Positions 3,620 to 63,765 of a stretch of 64,000 nucleotides of DNA are shown in pieces. The stretch is taken from assembly GCA_023137615.1 (NCBI GenBank), contig JAGLOS010000001.1, positions 1,067 to 65,066 on the forward strand. The letters run 5' to 3'. The DNA is from Minisyncoccota bacterium. GTDB taxonomy: Bacteria > Patescibacteriota > Minisyncoccia > Phycocordibacterales > JAGLOS01. Numbering within the stretch: position 1 is the stretch's first letter; every line of letters starts with the position of its first letter. A program made the position numbers and the translations under genes. The notes under the pieces are model-generated. The model ran no database searches. It saw only the letters and a list, made by a program, of their open reading frames with translations, and was not told the DNA's origin.

Positions 3620-4069
3620 ATGGATGAACAACCAACAACACAACAAAATGGAGAAGTTCCTTTTGAACAGTCTTCTGGCAATACACCCACACCGGCACCA
3701 ACACAAAAAAATGCCGAAGGGTGGTCATGGGGAGGTTTTATGTTTGAGCCAATACTCATTATCGCTACCAAAAAATATGTTTATCTGCTCTTCTTTTTTT
3801 TATATTTGATCCCGCTTATCAACTTCATCGCGATTATCGGAATAAAGATCTTCTTTGGTCTCAAGGGACGCGAAATTGTAATGCAAAGCCCCGCTTTCAG
3901 CAACAGTGACGAAGCACGGGGATTCATGAAAGGTCTCGACCATGCGGGATTTATAAGTTTTATTTTCACGGTCGTTATGTTTGCACTATCTTTCCTCTTT
4001 CTAGGCGCGTTGTTCAGCGGTTTGCTTAGTGGCGGAATGGAAATATCTCCGGATATCTACGGATATTAA
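3620..4069 (+). CDS. hypothetical membrane protein
   Basis: 149 aa. Low-complexity N-terminus followed by three predicted TM helices. No recognisable domain. Confidence 0.45.
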   Translation: MDEQPTTQQNGEVPFEQSSGNTPTPAPTQKNAEGWSWGGFMFEPILIIATKKYVYLLFFFLYLIPLINFIAIIGIKIFFGLKGREIVMQSPAFSNSDEARGFMKGLDHAGFISFIFTVVMFALSFLFLGALFSGLLSGGMEISPDIYGY

Positions 4070-4131: not shown

Positions 4132-5466
4132 CTACAAATTTTGCTCTTGATGTGTGAGGTTGTGTACACATTTCTTGAACAAATCACCTTTTTCTTCAAA
4201 ATTTTTATACAAACTATAGCTCGGTGACGCCGTTGAAAGTAAGCTCATTTTACCTTTTGGTGTATTAGCCGTGCAATATTGCACGGCTTCTTCCATATTA
4301 TCAGTAGAAAGAACTTTTGGAGAATATTCTTTTTCAGTATTTATAAGTTCCCCAATCTTTTTTCCTGTGTCCGGAAGAAGGACAATGGTCGATACCGAAT
4401 ATTCTTTCAATTTTCGCACAAGTCCACTAAACTCATAGCCCCGATCCTCTCCACCCAAGATAATAGATCCAAGTTTTTCCTTAAAAACTTCAATACCCGC
4501 GATTGTTGATTCCGGTGTTGTTGAAATAGCATCATCATAAAAATGAACACCTTTGACATTATCAACATATTCCAATCGATGAGGCAGTCCATAAAATTGT
4601 GAGATCGATCTTTCAATAACATTATTCTCAACCCCTAATAAATGTGTCGCGGAAATAACAGCAAGAACATTATCTTTATTATGATCACCGGGTATTTTTA
4701 CTGCGCCAACGGGAAATATCTTATTTCCACCTTCATAAAACCATTTTTCGTCATACCACACATTATCTTGTTCACCATATATTATTTTTTTTGCTTTGGT
4801 TTCTAACTCTGTCAATTTTTCATATTGTTTGTTTACAATAAGAAGATCTTCTTCGGATTGACCGCGCGTAATATTTTTTTTTGCGTTGAAATAATTATCA
4901 AATCCTCCGTGGTAGGTAAGATGATCCGGGAATAAGCTTGTAATAATTGCGATATGCGGATGAATATGCGTGCCTTCAAGTTGATAGCTGGAAAGCTCAC
5001 AAACAAAAGTAGTATTTTTACACTCAACGTATTTGAGAGCGGGAACACCTATATTTCCGATAAGTTCTGTTTGCCTGCCATCCTCTTTGAGTACCTCAAA
5101 AAGCATGGATACAACCGTACTCTTGCCCTTAGAGCCGGTAACACCAACAACAGTATTAGACGAATCTATAGAATCAAAAAATATTTGAGTCGCTGATGTT
5201 ATTTTTTCAGCAAGTGGTTTAAGCTCGGGCGACATAGAGATCCCCGGTGTTTTTATAATAACGTCAAAATCTCCAAGACTATCTTGATAATTTTCCCCTT
5301 TTAAAAGGCTCACATTTTTATCTGAGCAAGATAAATTTTCATTCTGGTCTGCTATAGCAAAATGTTTATCCGGAAAATATTTTCTGAGCACACGAAGAGT
5401 TTCCACACCTTCCCTGCCAAACCCAAGTAAAACTATTTTTTTATTTCCAAGAGTGCTGATATTCAT
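4132..5466 (-). CDS. murD: UDP-N-acetylmuramoyl-L-alanine--glutamate ligase (MurD family)
   Basis: 444 aa. N-terminal Rossmann LLGFGREG and Mur ligase P-loop GVTGSKGKST, plus C-terminal Mur ligase domain. Confidence 0.85.
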   Translation of the reverse strand: MNISTLGNKKIVLLGFGREGVETLRVLRKYFPDKHFAIADQNENLSCSDKNVSLLKGENYQDSLGDFDVIIKTPGISMSPELKPLAEKITSATQIFFDSIDSSNTVVGVTGSKGKSTVVSMLFEVLKEDGRQTELIGNIGVPALKYVECKNTTFVCELSSYQLEGTHIHPHIAIITSLFPDHLTYHGGFDNYFNAKKNITRGQSEEDLLIVNKQYEKLTELETKAKKIIYGEQDNVWYDEKWFYEGGNKIFPVGAVKIPGDHNKDNVLAVISATHLLGVENNVIERSISQFYGLPHRLEYVDNVKGVHFYDDAISTTPESTIAGIEVFKEKLGSIILGGEDRGYEFSGLVRKLKEYSVSTIVLLPDTGKKIGELINTEKEYSPKVLSTDNMEEAVQYCTANTPKGKMSLLSTASPSYSLYKNFEEKGDLFKKCVHNLTHQEQNL

Positions 5467-6866
5467 AATTTTTTGATAATATTTCTAAACTCCTGCGGAA
5501 CAGTATCTACAGAGCTTACGGTAAGAGCTTCTTTTATAAGTCTATCCGGATCTTCAACGTTTCCAAGAATGTTGTCGTCAAAATATTTCATAATAAAGTC
5601 ATTTGCATATTCCCCTTTTCTACTTGCTAATATAAATGCTGCCATACTTTCCTCCAGTGTTCCTACACACTCAAAAGGCTTGAACTTATGTTTACCAATA
5701 AGAGAAAGAAAAAGGGGCTGAAGTTTTTCGTCCGCAAAAAGATTTTTACCAAATATTTTTACAACCTCTTCTTTAGGAAGAAAGGCAGATAAAGCCAAGA
5801 AAATAAAAGCACACTTAGGACAAAAGCCGCACCATTTCCCCTTAGGTTTTTCTTTTGTTATTGTCCAATTCGCGTTACAACTCGCAAAAAGTGGAAAATA
5901 ATCTTTGTATTGTGAAAATATTTTTATTATCTTAAGCTCGCAAAGAGGTCGCAGTAGACTGAAAACTTCAATACTGGGAGTAATATACTTATGTAGATAT
6001 TCTGAGAAAGCTTTTTCAAACGTTAGACTTTTGCTGTACTGATGATTTATGACTTCACCAAGGTACTCTACATTTCCCTCGTCCGCACTTTTTTCAATTG
6101 AATGAACAACATGTTTATAGCCAAACAATATACAAAACACCACAGAAAGAAAGTTGATATACGCTGTAATGGGAATATGTCCATTATACGCACCCTCTTC
6201 GTTGAGACGGAAAAGCTCCGGCGATAATTCTCTTTTAATATATAGAGTTCCCTTTCCGGCTTTTTCCGCTATCTTCCGGATCGTCTCATTCTCCCCGTAT
6301 CTTAAAAGATCAAAATCTATTTCTTCGTGCTTCATTAATTCTGTCGCCACAATGGAATCTTTGCCTCCGCCTAAGAGCACCAGTGTACGCGAAGGAAGTT
6401 TCACCTCGGAAGCAGAGCTATGAACATCTTTCTCAAAGGGAAAATTAACAAGACCCCTAAAATCAATATTATTCTTGAAAAAGAATTCGCCAAGACCCTT
6501 GGTGTAAATATCATTCCAAAAAACAGCTTGTTCTTTTGAGAGATTGCCCGAGGAAATTTTTATCTCAGGAGGACAATATATTTTATAATAACTTACCCCC
6601 GCTATTAAATGGAGGTTAAATAATGCTTTATCTAATAATTCTTTATCAAATTCAAAATAATCATTGTCCGGTAGTTTTATTTTTTCACAGAAAAAAACGT
6701 TACTATCAAGAGAATAAAAAAGTTTAATTTCTCTCTTTTCTTTATTGAATTCATACGATTCAAATATAAAAGTCTTGTACTTACCCATGTAGGAATAATA
6801 CAATGTTATTTGTAATTTATAAACCGGTTTAACTCTCGTTGAAAGTGGTTTTACCCTAAATATCAT
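5463..6866 (-). CDS. PP-loop ATP pyrophosphatase-superfamily protein; candidate MurL-type UDP-MurNAc-L-Ala-L-Glu epimerase
   Basis: 467 aa. PP-loop LVLLGGGKDS and Cys cluster WCGFCPKC. Its stop overlaps the murD start by 4 bp, suggesting translational coupling. The MurL assignment is inference only. Confidence 0.5.
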   Translation of the reverse strand: MIFRVKPLSTRVKPVYKLQITLYYSYMGKYKTFIFESYEFNKEKREIKLFYSLDSNVFFCEKIKLPDNDYFEFDKELLDKALFNLHLIAGVSYYKIYCPPEIKISSGNLSKEQAVFWNDIYTKGLGEFFFKNNIDFRGLVNFPFEKDVHSSASEVKLPSRTLVLLGGGKDSIVATELMKHEEIDFDLLRYGENETIRKIAEKAGKGTLYIKRELSPELFRLNEEGAYNGHIPITAYINFLSVVFCILFGYKHVVHSIEKSADEGNVEYLGEVINHQYSKSLTFEKAFSEYLHKYITPSIEVFSLLRPLCELKIIKIFSQYKDYFPLFASCNANWTITKEKPKGKWCGFCPKCAFIFLALSAFLPKEEVVKIFGKNLFADEKLQPLFLSLIGKHKFKPFECVGTLEESMAAFILASRKGEYANDFIMKYFDDNILGNVEDPDRLIKEALTVSSVDTVPQEFRNIIKKL

Positions 6867-7078: not shown

Positions 7079-7459
7079 CTATGAGGATCCGAGGATGTCT
7101 TCTATTCGTGCAATGATCCCATCAAGACTGTAATCCGACTTTACCACATATCCTTTTACTCCAAGTTCAAGCCCCTCACTTATCTTTTCATTATCAGAAA
7201 AATTTGAACTTATGAGTACAGGTGTCTGTGATTCACCGTTTTTCTCTTTAAGAGCACGTAAAAATTCAAGTCCATCCATTTTGGGCATTTTTATATCAAG
7301 AACAATAAGATCAGGATGTTCTTCTCCTACTTTCAAGAGTCCTTCTTCCCCATCTTCCGCAGAAACAACTTCATATTTGTCCGCATAAGATTTACTAAAT
7401 GTGTCTCGAAATATCTTCAAAAAGATCTTGTCGTCATCTATAATAAGTATTTTTTTCAT
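7079..7459 (-). CDS. response regulator, stand-alone receiver domain
   Basis: 126 aa CheY-like. DDD acidic pocket, phospho-acceptor Asp in LDIKMP, conserved Thr and Lys. Confidence 0.8.
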   Translation of the reverse strand: MKKILIIDDDKIFLKIFRDTFSKSYADKYEVVSAEDGEEGLLKVGEEHPDLIVLDIKMPKMDGLEFLRALKEKNGESQTPVLISSNFSDNEKISEGLELGVKGYVVKSDYSLDGIIARIEDILGSS

Positions 7460-7474
7460 ATTGCTTTCACTATA

Positions 7475-9247
7475 TTAAATATTTATCGTAAAGTAAAAAG
7501 TACTTCCTTTCCCCTCTTGTGACGCAACACCGACAAACCCTCCGTGGGCCTCTATTACGCCTTTTACCACAACAAGTCCCAGTCCCAAGCTTGTTCTGCT
7601 TTCTCCTTTCCTTGTAACAATATTGTCTTTGTCAAATTTGGTAAACAACGCCCCAATTTTCGATCGTGGAATACCGACACCGGAATCAGTGATTCCAATA
7701 ATAACACAATCCTGTCTTTCTCGAAACGTCACATCCTCCTTTTCTTCTACAAACCACTCAACGCCGGCGGTTTTCGCTTCTCTACTGAGAATTTCTTCTT
7801 TTTTATGACGAAATATATCCACCGAAATAGTCCCGCCGAGTTCGGTATATTTTATTGCATTGGAAAGAAGGTTGTTTAATACCTGTTCGATCCGTATTGA
7901 GTCCATTTCAAGCTCGACCGGCACATTTTCCGAATAATTCATCTCCATTGTTATATTTCTGTCTTTTGCGGCAATGTCGAAGAAATGAAATCTCCCTTGT
8001 ATAACTTGCTTCAATTTAGTTACCCGTGTTGAAAGAATCAATTTTTCATTCTCAATGTTTGAAACATCCAAAAGATCATTTACCAATTCAAGCATTTGAG
8101 ATGACCCTTTGAATATCATTTTTATATATTCATCATATGTCTTCTTGTCTGTCCGTACTGTATCATCATGCATTACTTCACTCACTTTCTTAATACCATC
8201 AAGCGGTCCTCGAAGCTCATGTATCATAAGTGATGTAAATTCTTCCTTGAGCTTCTCTGCCTCTTTCTCCTTTGTCACGTCGTGCAGAACCACTACCCCA
8301 CCGAGGATCTGATCCTTCACAATATCTGCAAAACCTTTGACCGGAGACACGGAAAGCTGAAAAAAATTATCTTCCACTTTTACCTCAGGTGTAATAATGA
8401 TCTTATTCAAAGTAATACTTTCCTTGAGAGTTTCCCGTATATCAAAAGAGTCCCCTAGCCCATTAATAAGATCAAAAATATCAATACTGGAGTTATCTTT
8501 CAACCCAAGGTATCTCTTAGCGGCAGGATTTACCGCCATCACCTTATATTCACGATCAGTCATTACCACACCATCGGTCAAGCTCTCCACCACAGCACTA
8601 AGTTTTGCTTGTTCGGTCTTCACCACTTGCTCAAGTTTTGTAACCGCCTGTGATGCTTGTGCCACTATTTTGTAAAGGATCATAACATCCTGTTCTTTGT
8701 ATTGCTCCTTTCTTGTATGAGCCACTGTAAGTAATCCAACAACCCGCCCACCAATAACAAGTGGGATATTAAAAAAAGACTCGATCTTTTCCGGTGAACC
8801 ATCCAAGACAAGGGCTCCGGAGAGACTTTCTTTGATATCTTTTGTACGAACCTCCTTTTCAAGAAGAGCGGTAAGAGAATCTTCCATCTTTTTTTTAACT
8901 CCATCAACAAATTTTCGGCAAACAGACTCTTTTAGATCGATCTTAAAGGAAACCGGGTTATTTTCTTTTTGATCTACAAGCATGTATGACACCGTGGTAT
9001 ATTCGATGAATTGTCTGAGAGATCCTGTGATCATCTCGACCACCTTTTCGACATCAAGAGAATACCCCATTCCCTCACCCAATTTCTCAAGAACAGCAAG
9101 TTCGTACACCTTACGACGTACCTCGATCTCACAAGCATGTGCTCGTATACGAAACGACCTCTCTCTCCAACAGAGAACACAACCGGCTATCAGCACAATA
9201 ATTCCAATAATTCCAATAAGGGTATTTTCCATACACTCTAAAAACAC
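7475..9247 (-). CDS. sensor histidine kinase (TM-GAF-PAS-HisKA-HATPase)
   Basis: 590 aa. N-terminal TM helix, H-box HELRGPL, N/G boxes (LLSNAIKYT, GLGLVVVKGVIEAHGG). Adjacent to the response regulator. Confidence 0.85.
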   Translation of the reverse strand: MFLECMENTLIGIIGIIVLIAGCVLCWRERSFRIRAHACEIEVRRKVYELAVLEKLGEGMGYSLDVEKVVEMITGSLRQFIEYTTVSYMLVDQKENNPVSFKIDLKESVCRKFVDGVKKKMEDSLTALLEKEVRTKDIKESLSGALVLDGSPEKIESFFNIPLVIGGRVVGLLTVAHTRKEQYKEQDVMILYKIVAQASQAVTKLEQVVKTEQAKLSAVVESLTDGVVMTDREYKVMAVNPAAKRYLGLKDNSSIDIFDLINGLGDSFDIRETLKESITLNKIIITPEVKVEDNFFQLSVSPVKGFADIVKDQILGGVVVLHDVTKEKEAEKLKEEFTSLMIHELRGPLDGIKKVSEVMHDDTVRTDKKTYDEYIKMIFKGSSQMLELVNDLLDVSNIENEKLILSTRVTKLKQVIQGRFHFFDIAAKDRNITMEMNYSENVPVELEMDSIRIEQVLNNLLSNAIKYTELGGTISVDIFRHKKEEILSREAKTAGVEWFVEEKEDVTFRERQDCVIIGITDSGVGIPRSKIGALFTKFDKDNIVTRKGESRTSLGLGLVVVKGVIEAHGGFVGVASQEGKGSTFYFTINI

Positions 9248-30088: not shown

Positions 30089-30162
30089 GGGCGATTAGCT
30101 CAGTTGGCTAGAGCAACCCGTTTACACCGGGTAGGTCGGGGGTTCAAATCCCTCATCGCCCA
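30089..30162 (+). tRNA. tRNA-Val(TAC)
   Basis: 74-nt cloverleaf. Anticodon loop TTTACAC. T-arm GGGGGTTCAAATCCCTC. Confidence 0.85.
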
Positions 30163-32429: not shown

Positions 32430-33521
32430 CTAACGACTGGATGACAATGCTAACCCTATTGACGTGGCATACTGTAATGATTTTTCAAATGAAATACTTG
32501 GAATATAATTTTCAAATGAATTTATGTTTCCAAAAATATTTGCAACACGAACGTTGGTATGAATATTAGACGCCAGATACTCGGGAAGTCCTTTAAAATT
32601 AGCAAGTCCTCCGCACAACAGTAATGTATCTATCTTTTGTCGTTTCTTACCAAAAACATCATCGTGATTATTCCAGTATTGATAATGCTTTCCAACCTCA
32701 TCTTTAAGTGCCGAAACAGTCGGCATAAGGGCAAGAAGCATATTTTCATCTCCTTCACCTACCAAGAAACCTTTTTCTGTCTTTAGACGTTCAGCTTCTT
32801 CAAAACTTATTGAAAAATTCCTTGCCACAGCACGAGTGATCATGTCCCCTCCAATACCGATAGTGGAAGTAAATTGAACTACGCCGTTATTCACGATCGT
32901 GATACCTGTTCGTGTCTTTCCAAAATCAAGAACCATGAATGTTCCATCATCATCCTCTGGCACCACCGTCCGCGACACAGCATGAGACTCAACTTCAAAA
33001 CGAAGAGGCACCAGACCTGTCCCAAGAAAAACATCCATATATTCTTCTACGATCTCTCGTGGATATACGGTCACGTTCAATTCAATAAAAGCAAGGTCAT
33101 CATTGGGATCACCTCCTCGAATAATATCATAAGCAAACGTCGCTTCATTTACGGGAATTGGGACATGTTCTTCTATCTGAAGCTCCAGATTGTTATATAT
33201 TTCATCCGGTTGGACTTTTGGTATACGTACAACAACAACATATCCATGTTGCTCCGGTAATGATACGTTTACAAAATGGAGGTTATGGTCTCTTCTTAAT
33301 TTAGTGAAAAACGCTTTTATTTTTTTTGCATCTTTAATATACCCGTCTTCAATAAGACCTTTTGGAATGAGTCTTTTGTCAAACTTCTTTATTTTTTTTC
33401 CTTCCGGTGTATTTTCCAATTCTGCAATATGTACTGACTCGTCAGAAATATCAACCCCCGTTATGGGCATTCTCAAAAATTTTGGTGGAGGAAAAAATCT
33501 ATATAACAGACTCTGCTTCAT
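32430..33521 (-). CDS. pilM: type IV pilus assembly ATPase-like protein PilM
   Basis: 363 aa actin/HSP70-fold (VDISDESVHIAEL, LDFGKTRTGITIV). Confidence 0.75.
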   Translation of the reverse strand: MKQSLLYRFFPPPKFLRMPITGVDISDESVHIAELENTPEGKKIKKFDKRLIPKGLIEDGYIKDAKKIKAFFTKLRRDHNLHFVNVSLPEQHGYVVVVRIPKVQPDEIYNNLELQIEEHVPIPVNEATFAYDIIRGGDPNDDLAFIELNVTVYPREIVEEYMDVFLGTGLVPLRFEVESHAVSRTVVPEDDDGTFMVLDFGKTRTGITIVNNGVVQFTSTIGIGGDMITRAVARNFSISFEEAERLKTEKGFLVGEGDENMLLALMPTVSALKDEVGKHYQYWNNHDDVFGKKRQKIDTLLLCGGLANFKGLPEYLASNIHTNVRVANIFGNINSFENYIPSISFEKSLQYATSIGLALSSSR

Positions 33522-36344: not shown

Positions 36345-38039
36345 CTACACATCTAGCAACTGCAGCACTTTTCCTTTATCTTCCACCGCCCATAAAAAAG
36401 TTGCCAATCTCGGACCGGCGTTTTTCCCGATGAGTAAATTATATACCATCTGAAAAAACCGTTTTTGCCTTTTTATGTTTTCTTTCATGTCTAGCTCTTC
36501 TTTTTTGACAATACCATAAACCAGTTCGTTTAATTCAGGTATTGTTCTGTTTGGATTATCTTTTAATTCGCTTTTTAACTTTCTAACATGCCCTAATTCT
36601 TCCTCAGATAATGTTTCTATATATTCAGTATTTTTCTCTTTTTCTAATTTTATTATCTCCTCGCGATTATAAGTTTCTAACCAATTTTTAGCTTTTACGA
36701 GACGTTCTTTTATACTTTTTTCATCATAATCTTCTTCTTGCGCTTTCAATAACTCAATCATTTTATCTTTATCCCATTGAACAATTTGCCCAAAACCAAC
36801 CGCCTGTCTAAACGGAAGAGGTTTTTTGTATTCACCTTCCCTAGAAACACCACTAATTTTCAATGACTGTATATCAAAATCACTCAGGGGTTCTTCTCCT
36901 GTTTTCATTTCTTCAACTTTTCTGTCAAATTCTGCGTACTGTCTGTAAACTTCACTATCAAAAGCCAGCGAAAAAGTCTTGTTGGGCTCGGTTCTGAAAT
37001 AAAGCCACTTCAAAAGTTCCGGGGAATATATTTCCAACAATTTTCCGGGTGAAACACTGTTTCCTTTTGAACCGGACATTTTGTCTCCAAGTCCCCTAAT
37101 CCCTACGAAATCATATCCTTGATAGACAGGTGGCTCAACACAAAAAACCTCTTTTGCAATAACAGTAGAAGTATCGTAACTTCCTCCTGGAGTAGAGTGA
37201 TCTTTCCCGCCAGGTTCAAAACTGACATCTTCCGCCCCCCACCTCATTGCCCAATCAACTTTCCATGCCAATTTTACAATTCTGACCTTAGTAATATCAA
37301 TTGTTTCAGTTTTCCCGGAATCAAAACATTTGTAAGTTATTTTTTTATCTCCATCATAATCAATAACTTTAGTATTATCTTTTCCGGAAAAGCGAGAATA
37401 GACAGCAATTGGATAATAGTTTTTTATATATTCATCATCAACGATATTTTTATTCTCCTTTCCTTTGTCTGTCATGAAAGAAAGCAAAATTTTTGCTATT
37501 TTCTCTCTATTTTTTAGGGCTTCTATTATTTTTTCATCATATCTTCCAGATTTATGCTCGTTGGTTTGGTATATGTATTCTATCTCTATGTCCAAATCAG
37601 TCATTGCTTTCTCAAATTCTTCTTCTTGATATTTGGCATAAGACTTGTCTGTGCCATCTGGTGAAGGTATTCCTGTTAGAGGAAATCCAATATATTTTTC
37701 AAAACTTGGGTCTATACCCTGCGGAACTTTCCTAAACCTATCAAAATCATCCCAAGAAAAGATCATTCTGGCTTTCTTTCCTCTCTTTTTTAATTCTTCA
37801 AAAACCGCATAAGAGGTAACAATATCTCTAAAATTTCCAAAGTGGATAGTGCCCGATGGACTTATTCCCGAAGCGCACACATACTCATCTTTGTCTGGAA
37901 ATTTCTCCAACACTTTATCGGTATAAGCACTAGCCCAATGAAGTTTGTTTTCTAAACTTTCATCCTCATTTTTAACCCTTTCTTCTTTTTCTGAATTATC
38001 AGTTTTAAATTTTTTCATATTATCTCCAAGTTTTTGCAT
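36345..38039 (-). CDS. lysK: lysyl-tRNA synthetase, class I
   Basis: 564 aa. HIGH-type HFGNFRD and KMSKS-type DKMSGSKG motifs of class I LysRS. Confidence 0.85.
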   Translation of the reverse strand: MQKLGDNMKKFKTDNSEKEERVKNEDESLENKLHWASAYTDKVLEKFPDKDEYVCASGISPSGTIHFGNFRDIVTSYAVFEELKKRGKKARMIFSWDDFDRFRKVPQGIDPSFEKYIGFPLTGIPSPDGTDKSYAKYQEEEFEKAMTDLDIEIEYIYQTNEHKSGRYDEKIIEALKNREKIAKILLSFMTDKGKENKNIVDDEYIKNYYPIAVYSRFSGKDNTKVIDYDGDKKITYKCFDSGKTETIDITKVRIVKLAWKVDWAMRWGAEDVSFEPGGKDHSTPGGSYDTSTVIAKEVFCVEPPVYQGYDFVGIRGLGDKMSGSKGNSVSPGKLLEIYSPELLKWLYFRTEPNKTFSLAFDSEVYRQYAEFDRKVEEMKTGEEPLSDFDIQSLKISGVSREGEYKKPLPFRQAVGFGQIVQWDKDKMIELLKAQEEDYDEKSIKERLVKAKNWLETYNREEIIKLEKEKNTEYIETLSEEELGHVRKLKSELKDNPNRTIPELNELVYGIVKKEELDMKENIKRQKRFFQMVYNLLIGKNAGPRLATFLWAVEDKGKVLQLLDV

Positions 38040-47801: not shown

Positions 47802-48275
47802 ATGAACACTCTTACATCTCATATCTCATATAAAAAAGGTTTTACGTTGGTTGAGCTTCTTGTTACTATCACCATTGTTCTTGTTCTTTTAGCTATTTCC
47901 GTATCAGCATTCATAAACACGCGCGAAGTGCGAGCCCTTGAAAAAGAAGTTGATACTGTCGCTCATTTACTCGAAGAAACTCGCTCTCTCACTCTTGCAT
48001 CCAAAAACGATACCTACTATGGTGTCAATATCGATACGACAAATAATACTGTCACAATTATCATCGCGGGAGATACAAACAATATCTATAGAGAAGTAGT
48101 ATTGGATAACTACGTAACAATATCTGAGATCAATAGCGCTTCGCCCACCACAAATTTCGAGCGTCTCACTGGAAAAGTAAGCGTCTCCGGTGATATTATT
48201 ATCAGTCTTACATCCGACCCAACACAAACAAAAACTATTATTCTTCATCCAACGGGACTTGTTGATGTACAATAA
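47802..48275 (+). CDS. prepilin-type N-terminal cleavage/methylation domain protein (pilin/pseudopilin)
   Basis: 157 aa. KGFTLVELLVTITIVLVLL class III signal. Confidence 0.7.
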   Translation: MNTLTSHISYKKGFTLVELLVTITIVLVLLAISVSAFINTREVRALEKEVDTVAHLLEETRSLTLASKNDTYYGVNIDTTNNTVTIIIAGDTNNIYREVVLDNYVTISEINSASPTTNFERLTGKVSVSGDIIISLTSDPTQTKTIILHPTGLVDVQ

Positions 48276-48286
48276 AAAAACAATGT

Positions 48287-48802
48287 ATGAAATATAAAAA
48301 TACTCAACAAGGTTTTTCGATCGTAGAGGCAATGGTAGGAATTTCTGTCTTGGCATTTTTCCTCATTACTATTATCGGATCTTTTATTCTTTTTATAAAG
48401 ACAACCGCAGATAATACGCAACGAATACAGGCAGTGTATCTTTTGGAAGAAGGCATGGAGAGTATCCGCTTTGAGCGTGATGAAAATTGGAATAATATTA
48501 GCTTACTCAATACTGCGAATACCTACGTCCTTAATATCACTTCAAGCAACATAACACTACCCATACAAGGCGGTGTGAATACGGGAGAAATAATACTTGA
48601 TGATACGGTCTTTACCAGAAAATTCACAGTAGAGGATGTATGCCGTCACAATGGAACCAATGAGATCATGGATGTATGCTCCTTCCCAACCTATACTGAT
48701 TCGAACATACGAAGAATACATATGAGTGTTGAATGGACACCCAGAGATGGCATCGGAGTATATACACAGACACTTGAAGGATACATTGCAAATATTTTTT
48801 AA
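48287..48802 (+). CDS. prepilin-type minor pilin
   Basis: 171 aa. QQGFSIVEAMVGISVLAFFL N-terminal pilin signal. Confidence 0.65.
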   Translation: MKYKNTQQGFSIVEAMVGISVLAFFLITIIGSFILFIKTTADNTQRIQAVYLLEEGMESIRFERDENWNNISLLNTANTYVLNITSSNITLPIQGGVNTGEIILDDTVFTRKFTVEDVCRHNGTNEIMDVCSFPTYTDSNIRRIHMSVEWTPRDGIGVYTQTLEGYIANIF

Positions 48803-48808
48803 AAAATC

Positions 48809-49306
48809 ATGACTTCTAGAAAAAACACAAAACAACGCGGCATGACATTGGTTGAAGTTATCACCTACTCCGCCCTTTTGATCATTATCACATCTGCAGT
48901 GGTGGGTATTGTACTCAACTTTGCGTCGGTATATGAATCAATACACGCATCAAATAAACTCCGAACATCGGCAGTGAGTGCGGCGGACCGTATTGTTTTT
49001 GAAATACGCAATGCACAGGATATTACTTCGGTAAGTAGTAACGATATTACTCTCACCAATATTTCCGGTGACACAATTGACTTTGCCCTCACCTCAGGCA
49101 AGATCACTATAGAAGAGAACGGCGGCGGCACACAAAACCTTACCGGGAGTGATGTCACCGCAACGACGCTCAATTTCGAACACCTTGGGTCCTCCGGCTC
49201 ATCAAACCAAGCGGTAACTGTTGTATTTACACTCGAAACCCCTTACAAAGACACCGTAAAACAAACATCGTTCCAAGACACAATTGTTCTAAGAGGCGCA
49301 TATTAA
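48809..49306 (+). CDS. prepilin-type minor pilin
   Basis: 165 aa. QRGMTLVEVITYSALLIIITSAV N-terminal pilin signal. Confidence 0.65.
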   Translation: MTSRKNTKQRGMTLVEVITYSALLIIITSAVVGIVLNFASVYESIHASNKLRTSAVSAADRIVFEIRNAQDITSVSSNDITLTNISGDTIDFALTSGKITIEENGGGTQNLTGSDVTATTLNFEHLGSSGSSNQAVTVVFTLETPYKDTVKQTSFQDTIVLRGAY

Positions 49307-52732: not shown

Positions 52733-53314
52733 ATGATAGGATATCTCACGGGAAAGATCATCTATAATGATGAAAAACATATCATCTTGGATGTAAATGA
52801 TGTCGGATACAAAATATACGTGTCTATGGACACATTAAGCTGTCTTTCGACAGAAAAAGAGATCTCTCTTTGGATACATACCGTAGTACGTGAAGATACG
52901 CTGGATCTTTACGGCTTCAACACAGGACAAGAACTTTCGTTCTTCAAACTGGTTATTGGAGTATCGGGTATTGGACCAAAGGGGGCTCTTGGTGTCATGG
53001 ATATTGCACCGGTAGAAACACTCACTTCTGCAATTGCAGCAGGTGACACGTCGTACCTTACCAAAGTGTCCGGGGTTGGTAAAAAGATCGCTGAGAAGAT
53101 CGTGCTTGAGCTCAGAGACAAGGTTGACACAACAGGAACGGCTACGGAAGAAACGGGCGTAATACGCCATGAAGACCTCGATGTTCTCGAAGCCCTTAAG
53201 TCTCTCGGTTATCGTGAACACGAAGCAAGGGAAGCGGTCAAAAACCTCTCAAAAAACGTCGCCGGCACCAGTCAAAAAATAACCGAGGCACTAAAACTAT
53301 TAAGCAATGATTAG
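52733..53314 (+). CDS. ruvA: Holliday junction branch-migration protein RuvA
   Basis: 193 aa. N-terminal OB (MIGYLTGKI), HhH motifs (GVSGIGPKGAL..), C-terminal domain III. Confidence 0.85.
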   Translation: MIGYLTGKIIYNDEKHIILDVNDVGYKIYVSMDTLSCLSTEKEISLWIHTVVREDTLDLYGFNTGQELSFFKLVIGVSGIGPKGALGVMDIAPVETLTSAIAAGDTSYLTKVSGVGKKIAEKIVLELRDKVDTTGTATEETGVIRHEDLDVLEALKSLGYREHEAREAVKNLSKNVAGTSQKITEALKLLSND

Positions 53315-54581
53315 CATGGAATTCATTTTGCGAATAACAAAAAAGTTAATTCCGAATTTTATTTTTTCGGCATTACAACCGGTATATCATTATCTTTTTG
53401 CATTCTGCAGCGCTGTTCGCTTCGGTTCCCCCTCCCGAAAGATCTTTGTAGTAGGAGTGACCGGTACCAAAGGCAAATCAAGCACCACCGAGATCATCAA
53501 CGCACTGCTTGAAGGTGCGGGATACAAAACTGCGATGGTAAATGGTATTCGTTTTAAGGTTGGTAACGATTCCATACCAAACAAACTCAAGATGACTATG
53601 CCAGGACGAATGCTTATTCAGCAATATATTAAAAAAGCCGTTGCCGCTAAATGCGATTATTTTATTTTGGAAATGACTTCAGAGGGAGCGAAGCAGTTTC
53701 GCCATAAATTTTTAAATCTTGACACTCTTATTTTCACAAACATATCACCGGAGCATATAGAATCCCACGGCTCGTATGAAAAATATCTACAGGCAAAACT
53801 CTCTATCGCGCAAGAGCTAAAAAACTCTTGCAAAAGAAAAACTACTGTCATTGCAAACATCGATGATAAAGAGGGTGAAAAATTTCTTGCGGCAGGCATG
53901 GGTAAAAAAATATCTTTTTCTTTAAATGATCTTATCTCTTTCAAATTAAAAGATAACGGTATTGATCTCGTTTACATGGGTGAAAAATATTCTTCTCCGC
54001 TTTTGGGAAAATTCAATCTTTATAATATTCTCGCCGCAATGACTTTTGCAAAAAGTATCGACGTTTCAAACAAAGAAACAAGAGAATCTCTGAAAAATTT
54101 TCCCGGTATTCGAGGACGTGTTGAAAAAGTAAAGGCAGGGCAAGATTTTGACGTAGTAGTTGACTATGCTCACACCGCTGATTCACTCCGGCAATTTTAC
54201 GGCGCTTTCGAAGGGAAAAGAAAGATTTGTGTTCTAGGCTCATGCGGAGGTGGACGCGACAACTGGAAACGTCCTGATATGGGCGCGGTGGCTGACACTT
54301 TTTGTGACACGATAATCCTCGCCAACGAAGACCCTTACGATGAAGACCCGATGCAAATAATAAACGATGTCGCCGGTGGAATTAAAAACCATAAGCCAAT
54401 TATTACTTTAGACCGACGCAAAGCTATCGCGCGCGCTCTTGGAGAAGCCCGCGTCGGGGATGCGGTCCTCATCACCGGCAAAGGCACTGACCCATATATA
54501 ATGGAAGCAAACGGTAAAAAGATTCAATGGGACGATGCGACTGTAGCAAGAGAGGAGTTGGGGAAGTTCTTAAATTTCTAA
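53307..54581 (+). CDS. murE: Mur ligase family protein, MurE-like (lacks N-terminal domain)
   Basis: 424 aa. P-loop VVGVTGTKGKSST, GKFNLYNILAAM and DYAHTADSL motifs of MurE-type ligases. Overlaps ruvA by 8 bp. Confidence 0.65.
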   Translation: MISMEFILRITKKLIPNFIFSALQPVYHYLFAFCSAVRFGSPSRKIFVVGVTGTKGKSSTTEIINALLEGAGYKTAMVNGIRFKVGNDSIPNKLKMTMPGRMLIQQYIKKAVAAKCDYFILEMTSEGAKQFRHKFLNLDTLIFTNISPEHIESHGSYEKYLQAKLSIAQELKNSCKRKTTVIANIDDKEGEKFLAAGMGKKISFSLNDLISFKLKDNGIDLVYMGEKYSSPLLGKFNLYNILAAMTFAKSIDVSNKETRESLKNFPGIRGRVEKVKAGQDFDVVVDYAHTADSLRQFYGAFEGKRKICVLGSCGGGRDNWKRPDMGAVADTFCDTIILANEDPYDEDPMQIINDVAGGIKNHKPIITLDRRKAIARALGEARVGDAVLITGKGTDPYIMEANGKKIQWDDATVAREELGKFLNF

Positions 54582-55166: not shown

Positions 55167-55239
55167 CCGCCCATAGCTCAGTTGGTAGAGCAGTTGCCTT
55201 TTAAGCAAACGGTCGTAGGTTCAAGTCCTACTGGGCGGA
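55167..55239 (+). tRNA. tRNA-Lys(TTT)
   Basis: 73 nt. Acceptor CCGCCCA/TGGGCGG. Anticodon loop CTTTTAA. T-arm GTAGGTTCAAGTCCTAC. Confidence 0.8.
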
Positions 55240-61983: not shown

Positions 61984-63765
61984 GTGGTAAAAAATAAATC
62001 ATCTCGCAGTAGAATCAACGGGGGTAATCCATTTGTTTTTTCATTCGAAAAACGATATTATTTAGTAACAATGATAAAATTTGACGACAACGATCAAAAT
62101 CTTCGGGTTGACGCTCTTCACAAACAAGAAGAGGAACGTCTTATCGAAATGTTATCTAAAAAATATGATCTCCCTTATATAAAGATCGTTCCTCAAATGG
62201 TCAACATTGAGGCGGTATCACTTATCCCTGAAAAGGTTGCTCGAGAATCATTCATCGCTTCATACGACATACCCTCAAAAAATCAAATTGCTCTAGCTGT
62301 TTTTTCCCCCAACAACCCAAAAACACAGAAAGTCATAGATTCTTTAAACCAAAAAGGCCTTTCCACAACCGTATCGATGGCATCGAGAGATAGCTTGAAC
62401 ATTGTGTGGGAAAGGTACAAAGAAATATCTTTGGCAAAAAAATCTGAGGTCGGGGTTCTTGATGTCACTAGCGATGATATTAGTGTCCTTATGGAAGGGG
62501 TCTCTAATATAAACGAACTTACTACAAAGATAACTGAACTGCTCAACTCAAAATCCACAAACAGACTTTCACGAATATTTGAATTCATCCTTTCCGGTGC
62601 TTTTGTGATCAAATCATCAGACATACATATGGAACCACAAGAGAACGGGGTTCGTGTTCGCTACAGAATAGATGGTGTTCTTCAAGATGTGATAAATATT
62701 GATCATGAAATATACAAAAGGATCAGCACACGAGTTAAGCTCCTCTCCGGTCTAAAATTAAACGTACAAAGAGACACACAAGACGGACGTTTTAGTATTC
62801 GATTTAAAAATACAGACATTGAAATACGCACATCAGTCCTTCCGGGGCAACATGGAGAATCAATTGTTTTACGTATTCTTGATCCTGAATCCATTTCCGT
62901 ATCCCTTGAGGGGCTTGGGATCAATAACCAACTCCTCACAATCTTAAAAAAAGAGATAACTAAACCAACAGGAATGATCCTCACCACAGGACCAACAGGA
63001 GCCGGAAAGACCACCACTCTCTACGCTTTTTTGAAAAAAGTACTTAATCCTGATATTAAAATAATTACTATTGAAGATCCGGTAGAGTACCATATCAACA
63101 ACATTGTTCAAACGCAGGTCAATCGTTCAACCAACTACACGTTCTTGAGTGGACTCCGTGCAGCATTGAGACAAGATCCGGACATTATTATGATAGGTGA
63201 GATTCGAGACGGTGAAACAGCAAAGATCGCCGTTAACGCCTCACTCACAGGACATTTGGTGCTCTCAACCCTGCATACAAATTCAGCGGCAGGAACGATC
63301 CCTCGATTGATCGATCTGGGAATCAACCCAAAAGTGCTTGCAACAGCAATGAGTGTCTCAATGGCCCAGCGTCTTGTCCGCAAACTGTGTAATGATTGTA
63401 AAGTTGCAAGTACACCCAAGGCAGGTGAATTGACGATCTTAAAACATATTGTTAAAAAAATAAACATCAAACATCCCGACTCTCAAGTTACGGTACCACA
63501 AACAATATATAATGCCCGCGAGGGTGGTTGTGAAAAATGTAATGGTGTTGGATATATTGGACGAATCGGAGTGTATGAAGCAATCCTTATGGATGAAACA
63601 ATAGAAGAACTCCTTGATAAAAACCCAAGTGAAAAAGAGATCGTCACCGCCGCGATCCCGCAAGGGATATTCAATATGCAAGAAGACGGTATTATGAAAG
63701 TCATTGAAGGAACCACTTCACTTCATGAACTTGGACGAGTGCTTGATATTGAGATAGATACATAA
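61984..63765 (+). CDS. pilB: type IV pilus assembly / type II secretion ATPase (PilB/GspE family)
   Basis: 593 aa. Walker A TGPTGAGKTTTLYA, Asp and His boxes (IMIGEIRD, LVLSTLHTNSA), tetracysteine CNDC...CEKC. Confidence 0.85.
   Translation: MVKNKSSRSRINGGNPFVFSFEKRYYLVTMIKFDDNDQNLRVDALHKQEEERLIEMLSKKYDLPYIKIVPQMVNIEAVSLIPEKVARESFIASYDIPSKNQIALAVFSPNNPKTQKVIDSLNQKGLSTTVSMASRDSLNIVWERYKEISLAKKSEVGVLDVTSDDISVLMEGVSNINELTTKITELLNSKSTNRLSRIFEFILSGAFVIKSSDIHMEPQENGVRVRYRIDGVLQDVINIDHEIYKRISTRVKLLSGLKLNVQRDTQDGRFSIRFKNTDIEIRTSVLPGQHGESIVLRILDPESISVSLEGLGINNQLLTILKKEITKPTGMILTTGPTGAGKTTTLYAFLKKVLNPDIKIITIEDPVEYHINNIVQTQVNRSTNYTFLSGLRAALRQDPDIIMIGEIRDGETAKIAVNASLTGHLVLSTLHTNSAAGTIPRLIDLGINPKVLATAMSVSMAQRLVRKLCNDCKVASTPKAGELTILKHIVKKINIKHPDSQVTVPQTIYNAREGGCEKCNGVGYIGRIGVYEAILMDETIEELLDKNPSEKEIVTAAIPQGIFNMQEDGIMKVIEGTTSLHELGRVLDIEIDT

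What the first reader, a model, noticed from the sequence alone, without database searches (positions are those of the whole stretch)
4132..6866. MurD-family ligase translationally coupled to a PP-loop ATPase: candidate MurD2/MurL alternative D-glutamate route
The 467-aa ORF directly downstream of murD (4-bp overlap) has a PP-loop ATP pyrophosphatase motif (LLGGGKDS) and a CxxCxxC cluster. It resembles none of the usual cell-wall enzymes. In Xanthomonas an ATP-dependent epimerase (MurL) encoded next to an L-Glu-adding MurD2 converts UDP-MurNAc-L-Ala-L-Glu to the D-Glu form, replacing glutamate racemase. A PP-loop adenylating enzyme coupled to murD fits that logic. I cannot verify homology to MurL from memory, so this remains a hypothesis.
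Basis: inference. Interest (0 to 1): 0.6.

Follow-up and report, generated by a model that had tools for sequence, protein, structure and literature searches.

The report
MurL epimerase–MurD2 ligase operon
This uncultured ultra-small (CPR/Paceibacteria) bacterium carries the two-gene "alternative" route that puts D-glutamate into the cell wall by adding L-glutamate and flipping it afterwards; the route is known from Xanthomonas, but the data here show it is common in this large bacterial radiation.

Summary
Some details of the observation need correcting.

**Corrections.** Both genes lie on the minus strand, so the PP-loop ORF (5463-6866) is upstream of the MurD-like gene (4132-5466), not downstream. 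The two overlap by 4 bp (ATGA). The true start of the PP-loop ORF is probably M27 at 6788, which gives 441 aa.

**MurL.**
- It matches NCBIfam MurL (NF041275) end to end, E=1.6e-122.
- It is 37-40% identical to Dyella/Rhodanobacter MurL.
- It carries Pfam MurL_N plus MurL_epimerase_C.
- It keeps all but one of the family's ≥90%-conserved residues.

**Linkage to the ligase.** All 77 of 80 homologous loci in which a ligase could be seen carry a MurD-type ligase next to MurL or fused to it. It lies immediately downstream in 59 loci, is fused into one ORF in 16, sits upstream in one, and lies about 520 nt downstream in one.

**The ligase here.** It has four of the five MurD2-type specificity residues, including the shared ISTTP motif that replaces the canonical DSKATN. 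It keeps Asp at the E197 position.

**Limits.** Enzyme activity is untested, and absence of murI could be checked only within this 64-kb window.

**Verdict.** A new member of a known kind. It has moderate interest because published distribution lists omit CPR.

The parts
5463..6788 (-). [quoted passage not shown] The longest ORF extends to 6866 and gives 467 aa.
   Evidence: NF041275 E=1.6e-122, 409 bits, full length. The identical 441-aa protein P0001 carries PF26298+PF26299, named MurL_epimerase_C and MurL_N. Start inferred from the alignment of 42 homologs.
6414..6788 (-). MurL N-terminal domain (residues 1-125): a three-stranded sheet plus helices, with conserved Y67, K69, G98, F102 and N106. 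It is presumed to be a substrate-binding domain.
   Evidence: AF2 secondary structure, conserved residues and Pfam MurL_N on homologs. The role is inferred.
5784..6401 (-). MurL PP-loop ATP-pyrophosphatase core (residues about 130-335), QueC-like
6354..6371 (-). PP-loop motif G140-G-G-K-D-S145, a variant of SGGxDS
   Evidence: Read from the sequence. Invariant in the family, including Xanthomonadales MurL.
6027..6050 (-). Conserved I-N-H-Q-Y-S-K-S motif (N248, H249, Q250, S252, K253 conserved in 80 of 80); candidate active-site residues
   Evidence: The role is inferred.
5811..5882 (-). Four invariant cysteines: S-C304-N, then W-C320-x-x-C323-P-K-C326. This is a candidate Cys4 metal site like the Zn site of QueC.
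   Evidence: Invariant in 80 of 80 homologs; coordinates. The QueC analogy rests on the fold hit plus established knowledge of QueC. Metal binding was not tested.
5661..5681 (-). K370-P-F-E-C374-V-G motif in the C-terminal helical domain; C374 is a candidate catalytic acid/base or thioester nucleophile
   Evidence: K370, P371, C374, V375 and G376 are conserved in 80 of 80. The role is inferred.
5463..5466 (-). ATGA overlap: the murL stop codon (TGA) overlaps the ligase start codon (ATG), an arrangement typical of translational coupling
   Evidence: The same 4-bp overlap occurs in 11 of the related loci.
4132..5466 (-). [quoted passage not shown]
   Evidence: TIGR01087 304 bits, with Mur_ligase_M and C domains. 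Specificity positions are D/I/R/P/Y. A MurD-type ligase is linked or fused to MurL in 77 of 80 loci.
4513..4536 (-). D-D-A-I-S-T-T-P motif, replacing the canonical N-D-S-K-A-T-N (E. coli K319 becomes Ile)
   Evidence: Shared with Dyella and Rhodanobacter MurD2 (NDSISTTP). None of 70 MurL-linked ligases has Lys here, whereas all 5 canonical MurDs do.
4921..4929 (-). P-D-H: Asp retained at the position of E. coli D182 / X. oryzae MurD2 E197, followed by the Mg-binding His
   Evidence: This is the one specificity position that is canonical-like.
4438..4455 (-). G-G-E-D-R-G: Arg at the position of E. coli K348 / MurD2 R358
4216..4230 (-). A-S-P-S-Y: Pro and Tyr at the positions of E. coli A414 and L416 (MurD2 P433 and F435)

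Best explanation
A two-gene operon on the minus strand encodes the MurL/MurD2 alternative route to the D-glutamate of peptidoglycan.

1. The downstream gene (4132-5466) is a MurD-type ligase. It adds L-glutamate, not D-glutamate, to UDP-MurNAc-L-Ala.
2. The upstream gene (5463-6788) is MurL. [quoted passage not shown]
3. The product then goes to MurE, which is encoded at 53307-54581.

MurL is built around a QueC-like PP-loop ATP pyrophosphatase core. The likely mechanism is as follows. The PP-loop (GGGKDS) positions ATP so that the alpha-carboxylate of the terminal L-Glu is adenylated. Activation acidifies the C-alpha proton, possibly through an oxazolone. A conserved base removes the proton and it is returned on the opposite face. 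Candidates for that base are C374 of KPFECVG, and H249 or K253 of NHQxSK. The adenylate is then hydrolysed to AMP, which makes the reaction one-way.

**Shown here:** homology, domain fold, motif conservation, gene linkage and fusion.

**Taken from published biochemistry of the X. oryzae enzymes:** the L-Glu ligase activity and the ATP-dependent one-way epimerisation.

**Inferred:** that this pair has the same activities, the adenylation site, the base, and a Cys4 metal site.
For: **MurL identity.**
- NF041275 matches at E=1.6e-122 over 7-444 of 447.
- Pfam MurL_N and MurL_epimerase_C hit the identical protein.
- Identity to Dyella/Rhodanobacter/Frateuria MurL is 37-40%. Those proteins pass the equivalog cut-off at 775-786 bits, and the review PMC8788868 names those genera as pathway carriers.
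- Only one position that is at least 90% conserved in the family differs in our protein (N231 is Ile).

**Fold.**
- The AF2 model has pLDDT 92.9 and pTM 0.91.
- The family profile finds TtuA at the PP-loop, E=4.9e-5.
- Published MurL uses one ATP and forms AMP, which is PP-loop chemistry.

**Linkage.**
- 77 of 80 loci have a MurD-type ligase linked to MurL on the same strand. The other 3 contigs end at or shortly after murL.
- Of the 77, 59 lie immediately downstream, 16 are fused into a single ORF, one is upstream and one is about 520 nt downstream.
- Fused proteins of 800-900 aa occur in both domain orders.

**Ligase type.**
- Residues are I319, R348, P414 and Y416 in E. coli numbering, and the ISTTP motif is shared with Xanthomonadales MurD2.
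- The five canonical MurDs with structures have K319 and A414.
- K319T lets E. coli MurD accept L-Glu (PMC8788868).

**Context.**
- MurE is present in the window.
- No MurI homolog is present in the window.
Against: - The ligase keeps Asp at the position of X. oryzae MurD2 E197. There, E197D alters stereospecificity, and E197D/R358K converts the enzyme to a D-Glu ligase. However, 9 of 75 MurL-linked ligases also have Asp, and 4 of those are fused to MurL.
- The MurL score of 409 bits is below the NF041275 equivalog cut-off of 700. Alphaproteobacterial homologs also fall below it at 456-491 bits, so the cut-off is clade-specific.
- A small NJ tree did not resolve MurL-linked ligases as a clade when rooted on MurE (17/100).
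- Absence of murI and of D-amino-acid aminotransferase could not be checked genome-wide.
- No activity has been measured for any CPR member.
Confidence: 0.85

Rival explanations
1. The ligase is a canonical D-Glu-adding MurD. The MurL homolog then does something else in this lineage. It could salvage or proof-read L-Glu mis-incorporated by a sloppy MurD, or it could epimerise a different muropeptide.
For: - Asp is retained at the E. coli D182 position.
- TIGR01087 'murD' is passed at 304 bits.
- Streptococcal canonical MurD also has Arg at K348, and the S. mutans enzyme slightly accepts L-Glu.
- The ligase scores higher against S. agalactiae MurD (220 bits) than Rhodanobacter/Dyella MurD2 score against it (about 160-200 bits).
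Against: - TIGR01087 is also passed by bona fide Dyella MurD2 (331 bits), so it does not discriminate between the two types.
- K319 is replaced by Ile inside an ISTTP motif shared with MurD2. None of 70 MurL-linked ligases has Lys there, while all 5 canonical MurDs do.
- P414 is MurD2-like.
- Ligases with Asp at position 182 occur physically fused to MurL (L003, L020, L032, L035).
- No second murD and no murI lie in the window.
Confidence: 0.1
2. The PP-loop protein is a nucleic-acid or cofactor modification enzyme of the QueC, TtuA or MnmA type (queuosine or tRNA thiolation). Its position beside murD would then be coincidental.
For: - The PP-loop segment matches TtuA and MnmA.
- Pfam QueC gives a weak hit, E=0.24.
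- There is a Cys-rich cluster as in QueC and TtuA.
Against: - Similarity to those families is limited to about 35 residues by sequence and about 170 of 441 residues by fold.
- No NCBIfam or Pfam model of those families reaches threshold.
- The whole length matches MurL.
- Adjacency to, or fusion with, a MurD-type ligase is conserved in 77 of 80 loci.
Confidence: 0.02
3. The protein is a nuclease, as suggested by the name 'endonuclease domain-containing protein' that NCBI gives to several close homologs.
For: Source names.
Against: - No nuclease family is hit in Pfam or NCBIfam.
- JGI names equally close homologs as the epimerase.
Confidence: 0.01

Closest known systems
[quoted passage not shown] 2017; reviews PMC8788868 and PMC5808125)
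   Same: - Homology runs the full length (NF041275 E=1.6e-122).
- Both Pfam domains, MurL_N and MurL_epimerase_C, are present.
- All invariant motifs are kept: GGGKDS, NHQxSK, SCN, WCxxCPKC and KPFECVG.
- The gene order murL->murD2 is the same.
   Different: - Identity to the Rhodanobacteraceae, Frateuria and Rudaea members of that clade is only 37-40%.
- The score is below the clade-specific equivalog cut-off (409 against 700 bits).
- The host is a Paceibacteria (CPR) MAG, a lineage missing from the published distribution lists (Gamma- and Alphaproteobacteria, rare actinobacteria).
- Activity is untested.
[quoted passage not shown]
   Same: - It has the MurD architecture.
- Arg sits at R358, Pro at P433 and an aromatic residue at F435.
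- The ISTTP motif replaces DSKATN.
- It lies immediately downstream of murL.
   Different: - It has Asp instead of Glu at E197, the residue shown by mutagenesis to contribute to L-Glu selection.
- Overall similarity is modest: Rhodanobacter/Dyella MurD2 score about 160-200 bits in a phmmer search with this ligase.
QueC (7-cyano-7-deazaguanine synthase) and QueC-like PP-loop enzymes (Cap9, QatC)
   Same: - The PP-loop sits at the first strand-helix junction.
- A C-terminal cysteine cluster with CxxCxxC spacing is present.
- The chemistry starts with adenylation of a carboxylate and releases AMP.
   Different: - There is no significant sequence match beyond the PP-loop (Pfam QueC E=0.24).
- MurL has extra N-terminal (about 125 aa) and C-terminal (about 105 aa) domains.
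- The outcome is epimerisation of a peptide residue, not nitrile formation or base transfer.
Glutamate racemase MurI plus canonical MurD
   Same: [quoted passage not shown]
   Different: - MurI racemises free glutamate without ATP, before ligation. Here the stereocentre is inverted after ligation, at the cost of ATP, and in one direction only.
- No MurI homolog was found in the window.

Membership tests
[quoted passage not shown] | Full-length sequence homology to the characterised (Xanthomonadales) clade | tested here: met
   NF041275 E=1.6e-122, profile positions 7-444 of 447. Identity to Dyella/Rhodanobacter/Frateuria MurL is 37-40%.
[quoted passage not shown] | Score at or above the NCBIfam equivalog cut-off (700 bits) | tested here: not met
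   The score is 409 bits. The model is clade-specific: Dyella and Rhodanobacter score 775-786, while alphaproteobacterial homologs score 456-491 and a Peribacteria homolog 406.
[quoted passage not shown] | Both Pfam MurL domains present | tested here: met
   Precomputed hits PF26298.1 and PF26299.1 lie on the identical 441-aa protein P0001. The local Pfam copy lacks these two models.
[quoted passage not shown] | Family-invariant residues retained | tested here: met
   All residues conserved at 97% or more are present. Only one position conserved at 90% or more differs (N231 is Ile).
[quoted passage not shown] | Encoded next to a MurD-type ligase | tested here: met
   There is a 4-bp overlap with the ligase gene. 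The same linkage or a fusion occurs in 77 of 80 loci.
[quoted passage not shown] | [quoted passage not shown] | not testable with these tools
   This needs an enzyme assay. It has been published only for X. oryzae, Micromonospora and Salinispora.
[quoted passage not shown] | Genome lacks glutamate racemase and D-amino-acid aminotransferase | tested here: inconclusive
   E. coli MurI finds nothing in the six-frame translation of the window at E<=10. Only 64 kb of the genome is available. D-amino-acid aminotransferase was not searched.
[quoted passage not shown] | MurD-type Mur ligase architecture | tested here: met
   TIGR01087 304 bits, with Mur_ligase_M and C domains and a weak MurD-like_N hit.
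[quoted passage not shown] | Glu at X. oryzae E197 (E. coli D182) | tested here: not met
   It is Asp, in P-D-H. Among MurL-linked ligases 66 of 75 have Glu and 9 have Asp. Four of the nine are fused to MurL.
[quoted passage not shown] | Arg at R358 (E. coli K348) | tested here: met
   It is Arg, in GGEDRG. All 70 MurL-linked ligases have Arg. This is not exclusive, because S. agalactiae canonical MurD also has Arg.
[quoted passage not shown] | Pro at P433 and an aromatic residue at F435 (E. coli A414, L416) | tested here: met
   They are Pro and Tyr, in ASPSY. Canonical MurDs have Ala at 414.
[quoted passage not shown] | Loss of the canonical Lys of DSKATN (E. coli K319). I derived this feature here; it is consistent with the published K319T result. 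| tested here: met
   The motif is DDAISTTP here and NDSISTTP in Dyella and Rhodanobacter. Of 70 MurL-linked ligases, 62 have Ile, 6 Leu, 2 Phe and none Lys. All 5 canonical MurDs have Lys.
[quoted passage not shown] | Preference for L-Glu over D-Glu | not testable with these tools
   This needs an enzyme assay.
PP-loop ATP pyrophosphatase superfamily (adenine nucleotide alpha hydrolases) | SGGxDS-type PP-loop after the first beta-strand of a Rossmann-like fold | tested here: met
   [not shown]
QueC family (PF06508) | Sequence membership at the Pfam gathering score | tested here: not met
   The score is 11.3 bits against a cut-off of 22, E=0.24, over residues 135-167 only.

The most novel reading that the evidence does not exclude
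The MurL/MurD2 route may not be a curiosity of a few proteobacterial and actinobacterial genera. It may be a major, perhaps the main, source of cell-wall D-glutamate across much of the Candidate Phyla Radiation.

Lineages in which it appears here include Peribacteria/Peregrinibacteria, Parcubacteria/Paceibacteria, Microgenomates and some Saccharibacteria. The two enzymes have repeatedly been fused into one polypeptide in these lineages.

Separately, MurL is described in the reviews read here as lacking known domains. On this evidence it is a QueC-like PP-loop adenylating enzyme with a Cys4 site. That would give a concrete mechanistic frame for the only known ATP-consuming peptide epimerase.
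Probability: 0.45. Interest if true: 0.55.

Novelty: new member of a known kind. Interest (0 to 1): 0.38.

Why it matters
**Distribution.**
- The alternative pathway has been promoted as a narrow-spectrum antibiotic target because it was thought to be limited to a few genera (PMC8788868).
- Here the family is found in at least 591 species-level genomes and 2,839 clusters at 50% identity.
- Of the 80 genomes closest to this protein, 44 are labelled as CPR lineages.
- If murI is truly absent from these genomes, a large branch of bacterial diversity makes its cell-wall D-Glu by ligating first and epimerising afterwards.

**Annotation.**
- The ligase is routinely named 'D-glutamate ligase'.
- MurL is often named 'hypothetical' or 'endonuclease domain-containing' in CPR genomes.
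- Metabolic reconstructions can therefore report a missing D-Glu source.

**Mechanism.**
- The QueC-like PP-loop fold, the invariant Cys4 cluster and the KPFECVG cysteine give testable hypotheses for how MurL works.
- The natural MurL-MurD2 fusions suggest that the intermediate is channelled between the two enzymes.

Tried and rejected
- **Local Pfam-A scan of the ORF.** It gave no family and, at E<=10, only a sub-threshold QueC hit. The local copy lacks PF26298 and PF26299, which appear only as precomputed hits.
- **phmmer against all PDB sequences.** There is no relative with a solved structure, so no MurL structure is available for direct comparison.
- **Foldseek against afdb50.** The library was not installed, so I could not compare directly with the AlphaFold model of X. 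oryzae MurL.
- **NJ tree.** I built it from MurL-linked ligases plus 5 canonical MurDs, rooted on MurE. The first attempt timed out. In the second, canonical MurDs grouped together (69/100), but MurL-linked ligases were not monophyletic (17/100). This is inconclusive, because there are too few canonical sequences and the outgroup is distant.
- **Search for murI.** There is no hit in the window or in the flanks of the 80 loci. This is uninformative for the genome as a whole. This MAG is not among the 80 genome-contig loci returned.
- **Literature.** No held paper links MurL to CPR or to a PP-loop/QueC fold. Penalver et al. 2024, on MurI activity in Saccharimonas, is not held.
- **Promoter and terminator scan.** Counts around the operon are no better than chance.
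- **Nuclease annotation.** The 'endonuclease' name given to homologs has no support.
Full report
**What is in the sequence**

The interval holds two ORFs, both on the minus strand. One is 467 aa at 5463-6866 and the other is 444 aa at 4132-5466. Because both are on the minus strand, the 467-aa ORF is the upstream gene and the MurD-like gene is downstream.

The junction reads AAATT-ATGA-AT. The TGA stop of the first gene overlaps the ATG of the second by 4 bp. Nearly all of the 42 aligned homologs start within a few residues of Met27 of the long ORF. An identical 441-aa gene call exists in the public collection (P0001). The probable CDS is therefore 5463-6788.

GGGKDS lies at 6354-6371 and W-C-G-F-C-P-K-C at 5811-5834.

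The contig comes from a 'Candidatus Pacebacteria/Paceibacterota' MAG. There the protein is deposited as 'hypothetical protein KAR24_00055' and the ligase as 'UDP-N-acetylmuramoyl-L-alanine--D-glutamate ligase'.

**Identity of the upstream protein**

[quoted passage not shown] The E-value is 1.6e-122 and the score 409 bits. No other NCBIfam family is hit.
- The score is below the equivalog cut-off of 700, but that cut-off is clade-specific. Dyella and Rhodanobacter proteins score 775-786. Alphaproteobacterial homologs (Emcibacter, Stellaceae) score 456-491, and a Peribacteria homolog scores 406.
- The identical protein carries precomputed Pfam hits PF26298 and PF26299, whose names are MurL_epimerase_C and MurL_N. 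The local Pfam copy lacks these models, which is why searches returned nothing.
- Against 80 homologs that include 24 from Rhodanobacter, Dyella, Frateuria, Rudaea and related taxa, the protein is 37-40% identical to the Xanthomonadales proteins. It keeps every residue conserved at 97% or more.
- Only one position conserved at 90% or more differs: N231 is Ile.

**Fold and likely chemistry**

By sequence, the family profile aligns its v-P-i-G-G-G-K-D-S segment to the SGGKDS of TtuA (E=4.9e-5) and to MnmA. No solved structure of a MurL relative exists.

The protein therefore has three parts:
- an N-terminal domain of about 125 residues;
- a QueC-like PP-loop core of about residues 130-335, ending in four invariant cysteines (C304, C320, C323, C326);
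- a C-terminal helical domain carrying an invariant K-P-F-x-C-V-G motif.

The reviews read here state that MurL 'lacks known conserved domains'. They also state that it consumes one ATP, forms AMP and works only in the L-to-D direction, and they hypothesise adenylation of the alpha-carboxylate. A PP-loop core is exactly the module expected for such adenylation.

The remaining steps are inference. They are loss of the C-alpha proton from the activated ester (directly or via an oxazolone), reprotonation from the other face by a conserved base such as C374, H249 or K253, and hydrolysis to AMP.

**Linkage to the ligase**

Of these, 591 encode a relative. By record title, the best 80 are:
- 44 CPR lineages (Peribacteria/Peregrinibacteria, Parcubacteria, Microgenomates, Saccharibacteria, Uhr-, Falkow-, Roizman-, Woese-, Taylor-, Levyi- and Moraniibacteria, and Paceibacter);
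- 24 from Rhodanobacteraceae, Lysobacterales and related Xanthomonadales;
- 5 'uncultured Gammaproteobacteria' MAGs;
- 3 Alphaproteobacteria;
- 1 Solirubrobacteraceae;
- 3 unnamed.

In 77 of the 80 a MurD-type ORF is linked to MurL on the same strand. The other 3 contigs end at or shortly after murL. The arrangements among the 77 are:
- immediately downstream in 59, often with the same 4-bp overlap;
- fused with MurL into one ORF of about 700-880 aa in 16;
- upstream in 1;
- about 520 nt downstream in 1.

The exhaustive search of 1.84 billion representatives finds 2,839 family members at E<=1e-3. Among the top 150 are about twenty proteins of 800-900 aa, with MurL at either end. One of these, P0125, carries MurL_N, MurL_epimerase_C, Mur_ligase_M and Mur_ligase_C. 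Recurrent fusion in both orders is strong evidence that the two enzymes act on consecutive steps.

**Is the ligase a MurD2?**

The review PMC8788868 gives the residues that distinguish X. oryzae MurD2 from E. coli MurD. They are E197/D182, R358/K348, P433/A414 and F435/L416. The double mutant E197D/R358K converts MurD2 into a D-Glu ligase. K319T lets E. coli MurD accept L-Glu.

I aligned our ligase to E. coli MurD, which was fetched. Its numbering was checked.

| Source | D182 | K319 | K348 | A414 | L416 |
|---|---|---|---|---|---|
| E. coli MurD (canonical) | D | K | K | A | L |
| P. aeruginosa MurD (canonical) | D | K | K | A | L |
| 7sir MurD (canonical) | D | K | K | A | F |
| T. maritima MurD (canonical) | D | K | K | A | F |
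| S. agalactiae MurD (canonical) | T | K | R | A | W |
| Xanthomonadales MurD2 | E | I | R | P | F |
| Most CPR MurL-linked ligases | E | I | R | P | Y |
| This ligase | D | I | R | P | Y |

The clearest shared derived feature is the motif D-[DS]-[AS]-I-S-T-T-P, which replaces N-D-S-K-A-T-N. It is present in our protein, in Dyella and Rhodanobacter MurD2, and in the CPR set. None of 70 MurL-linked ligases has Lys there.

The exception is Asp at position 182. Nine of 75 MurL-linked ligases share it. They include four that are fused to MurL and one from Rhodanobacteraceae. Asp is therefore compatible with coupling to MurL, but what compensates for it is unknown.

TIGR01087 'murD' does not discriminate between the two types. 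Dyella MurD2 passes it at 331 bits, so the deposited name 'D-glutamate ligase' carries no weight.

A small NJ tree was inconclusive.

**Context**

The operon is bounded downstream by a convergent ORF (3620-4069, plus strand). Upstream there is a 212-nt gap, followed by a response regulator and a histidine kinase on the same strand.

A MurE-type ligase lies at 53307-54581 (TIGR01085, 317 bits), so the next enzyme of the pathway is present. E. coli MurI finds nothing in the six-frame translation of the window. This covers only 64 kb of the genome.

**Comparison with what is known, and novelty**

The pathway, both enzyme families and their gene pairing were described in 2017 and reviewed later. 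Pfam and NCBIfam have MurL models, and JGI already names some CPR homologs as the epimerase. This locus is therefore a new member of a known kind.

Three points are not in the papers I could search:
- The published distribution lists name only Gamma- and Alphaproteobacteria and rare actinobacteria, with low-similarity hits in cyanobacteria, a fungus and an amoeba. Here CPR lineages dominate the closest relatives.
- Natural MurL-MurD2 fusions exist.
- MurL is a QueC-like PP-loop enzyme with a Cys4 cluster.

These points may already be visible in databases, so I rate the interest as moderate.

**Verdict**

The confidence that this is a MurL/MurD2 operon working as in Xanthomonas is about 0.85. 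The main residual doubt is the stereospecificity of a ligase that keeps Asp at the E197 position. The second doubt is the untested absence of murI.

Noticed in passing
window 53307-54581 (+): A MurE-type ligase of 424 aa matches TIGR01085 only from model position 73 (317 bits). In Pfam it shows only the middle and C-terminal Mur ligase domains. Either the N-terminal domain is short or absent, or the start codon is mis-called.
   Followed up: no
homologs P0053, P0071, P0088, P0093, P0106, P0121: NCBI names several CPR MurL homologs 'endonuclease domain-containing protein'. No nuclease fold or family was found for this protein, so this looks like a propagated mis-annotation.
   Followed up: partly
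L039:7152-8669 (Dyella) and window 4132-5466: The TIGR01087 'murD' equivalog is passed by bona fide Xanthomonadales MurD2 (331 bits). Annotation pipelines therefore label L-Glu-adding MurD2 enzymes as D-glutamate ligases.
   Followed up: partly
L015, L016, L020, L021, L022, L024, L025, L027, L032, L036, L046, L049, L065, L079, L003; L035; P0125, P0189, P0238, P0270: There are natural single-polypeptide fusions of MurL and the MurD-type ligase in both orders. MurL-MurD is common. MurD-MurL occurs in L035 and in P0189, P0238 and P0270.
   Followed up: partly
window 7079-9247 (-): A histidine kinase (590 aa) and a response regulator (126 aa) lie directly upstream of murL on the same strand, separated from it by 212 nt. 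I did not examine whether they are co-transcribed with murL-murD or regulate it.
   Followed up: no
window 36345-38039 (-): There is a class I lysyl-tRNA synthetase (PF01921, E=7e-109). This is the less common LysRS type in bacteria.
   Followed up: no
window 61984-63765 (+), 47802-49306 (+), 32430-33521 (-): Type IV pilus-related genes are present. A T2SSE/PilB-type ATPase is supported by Pfam. Several short pilin-like ORFs with an N-terminal hydrophobic helix and a PilM-like ORF were judged by eye only.
   Followed up: no
L007, L021, L053, L055, L073: Some MAGs are titled 'uncultured Gammaproteobacteria', yet their MurL and ligase genes cluster with CPR sequences, and L021 has the fused form. 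The taxonomic labels of these records may be wrong, or the genes may have been transferred.
   Followed up: no
window, seven sites (e.g. 30089-30162, 55167-55239): The Rfam gathering-threshold scan of the whole window gave seven tRNA genes and no other Rfam family.
   Followed up: no
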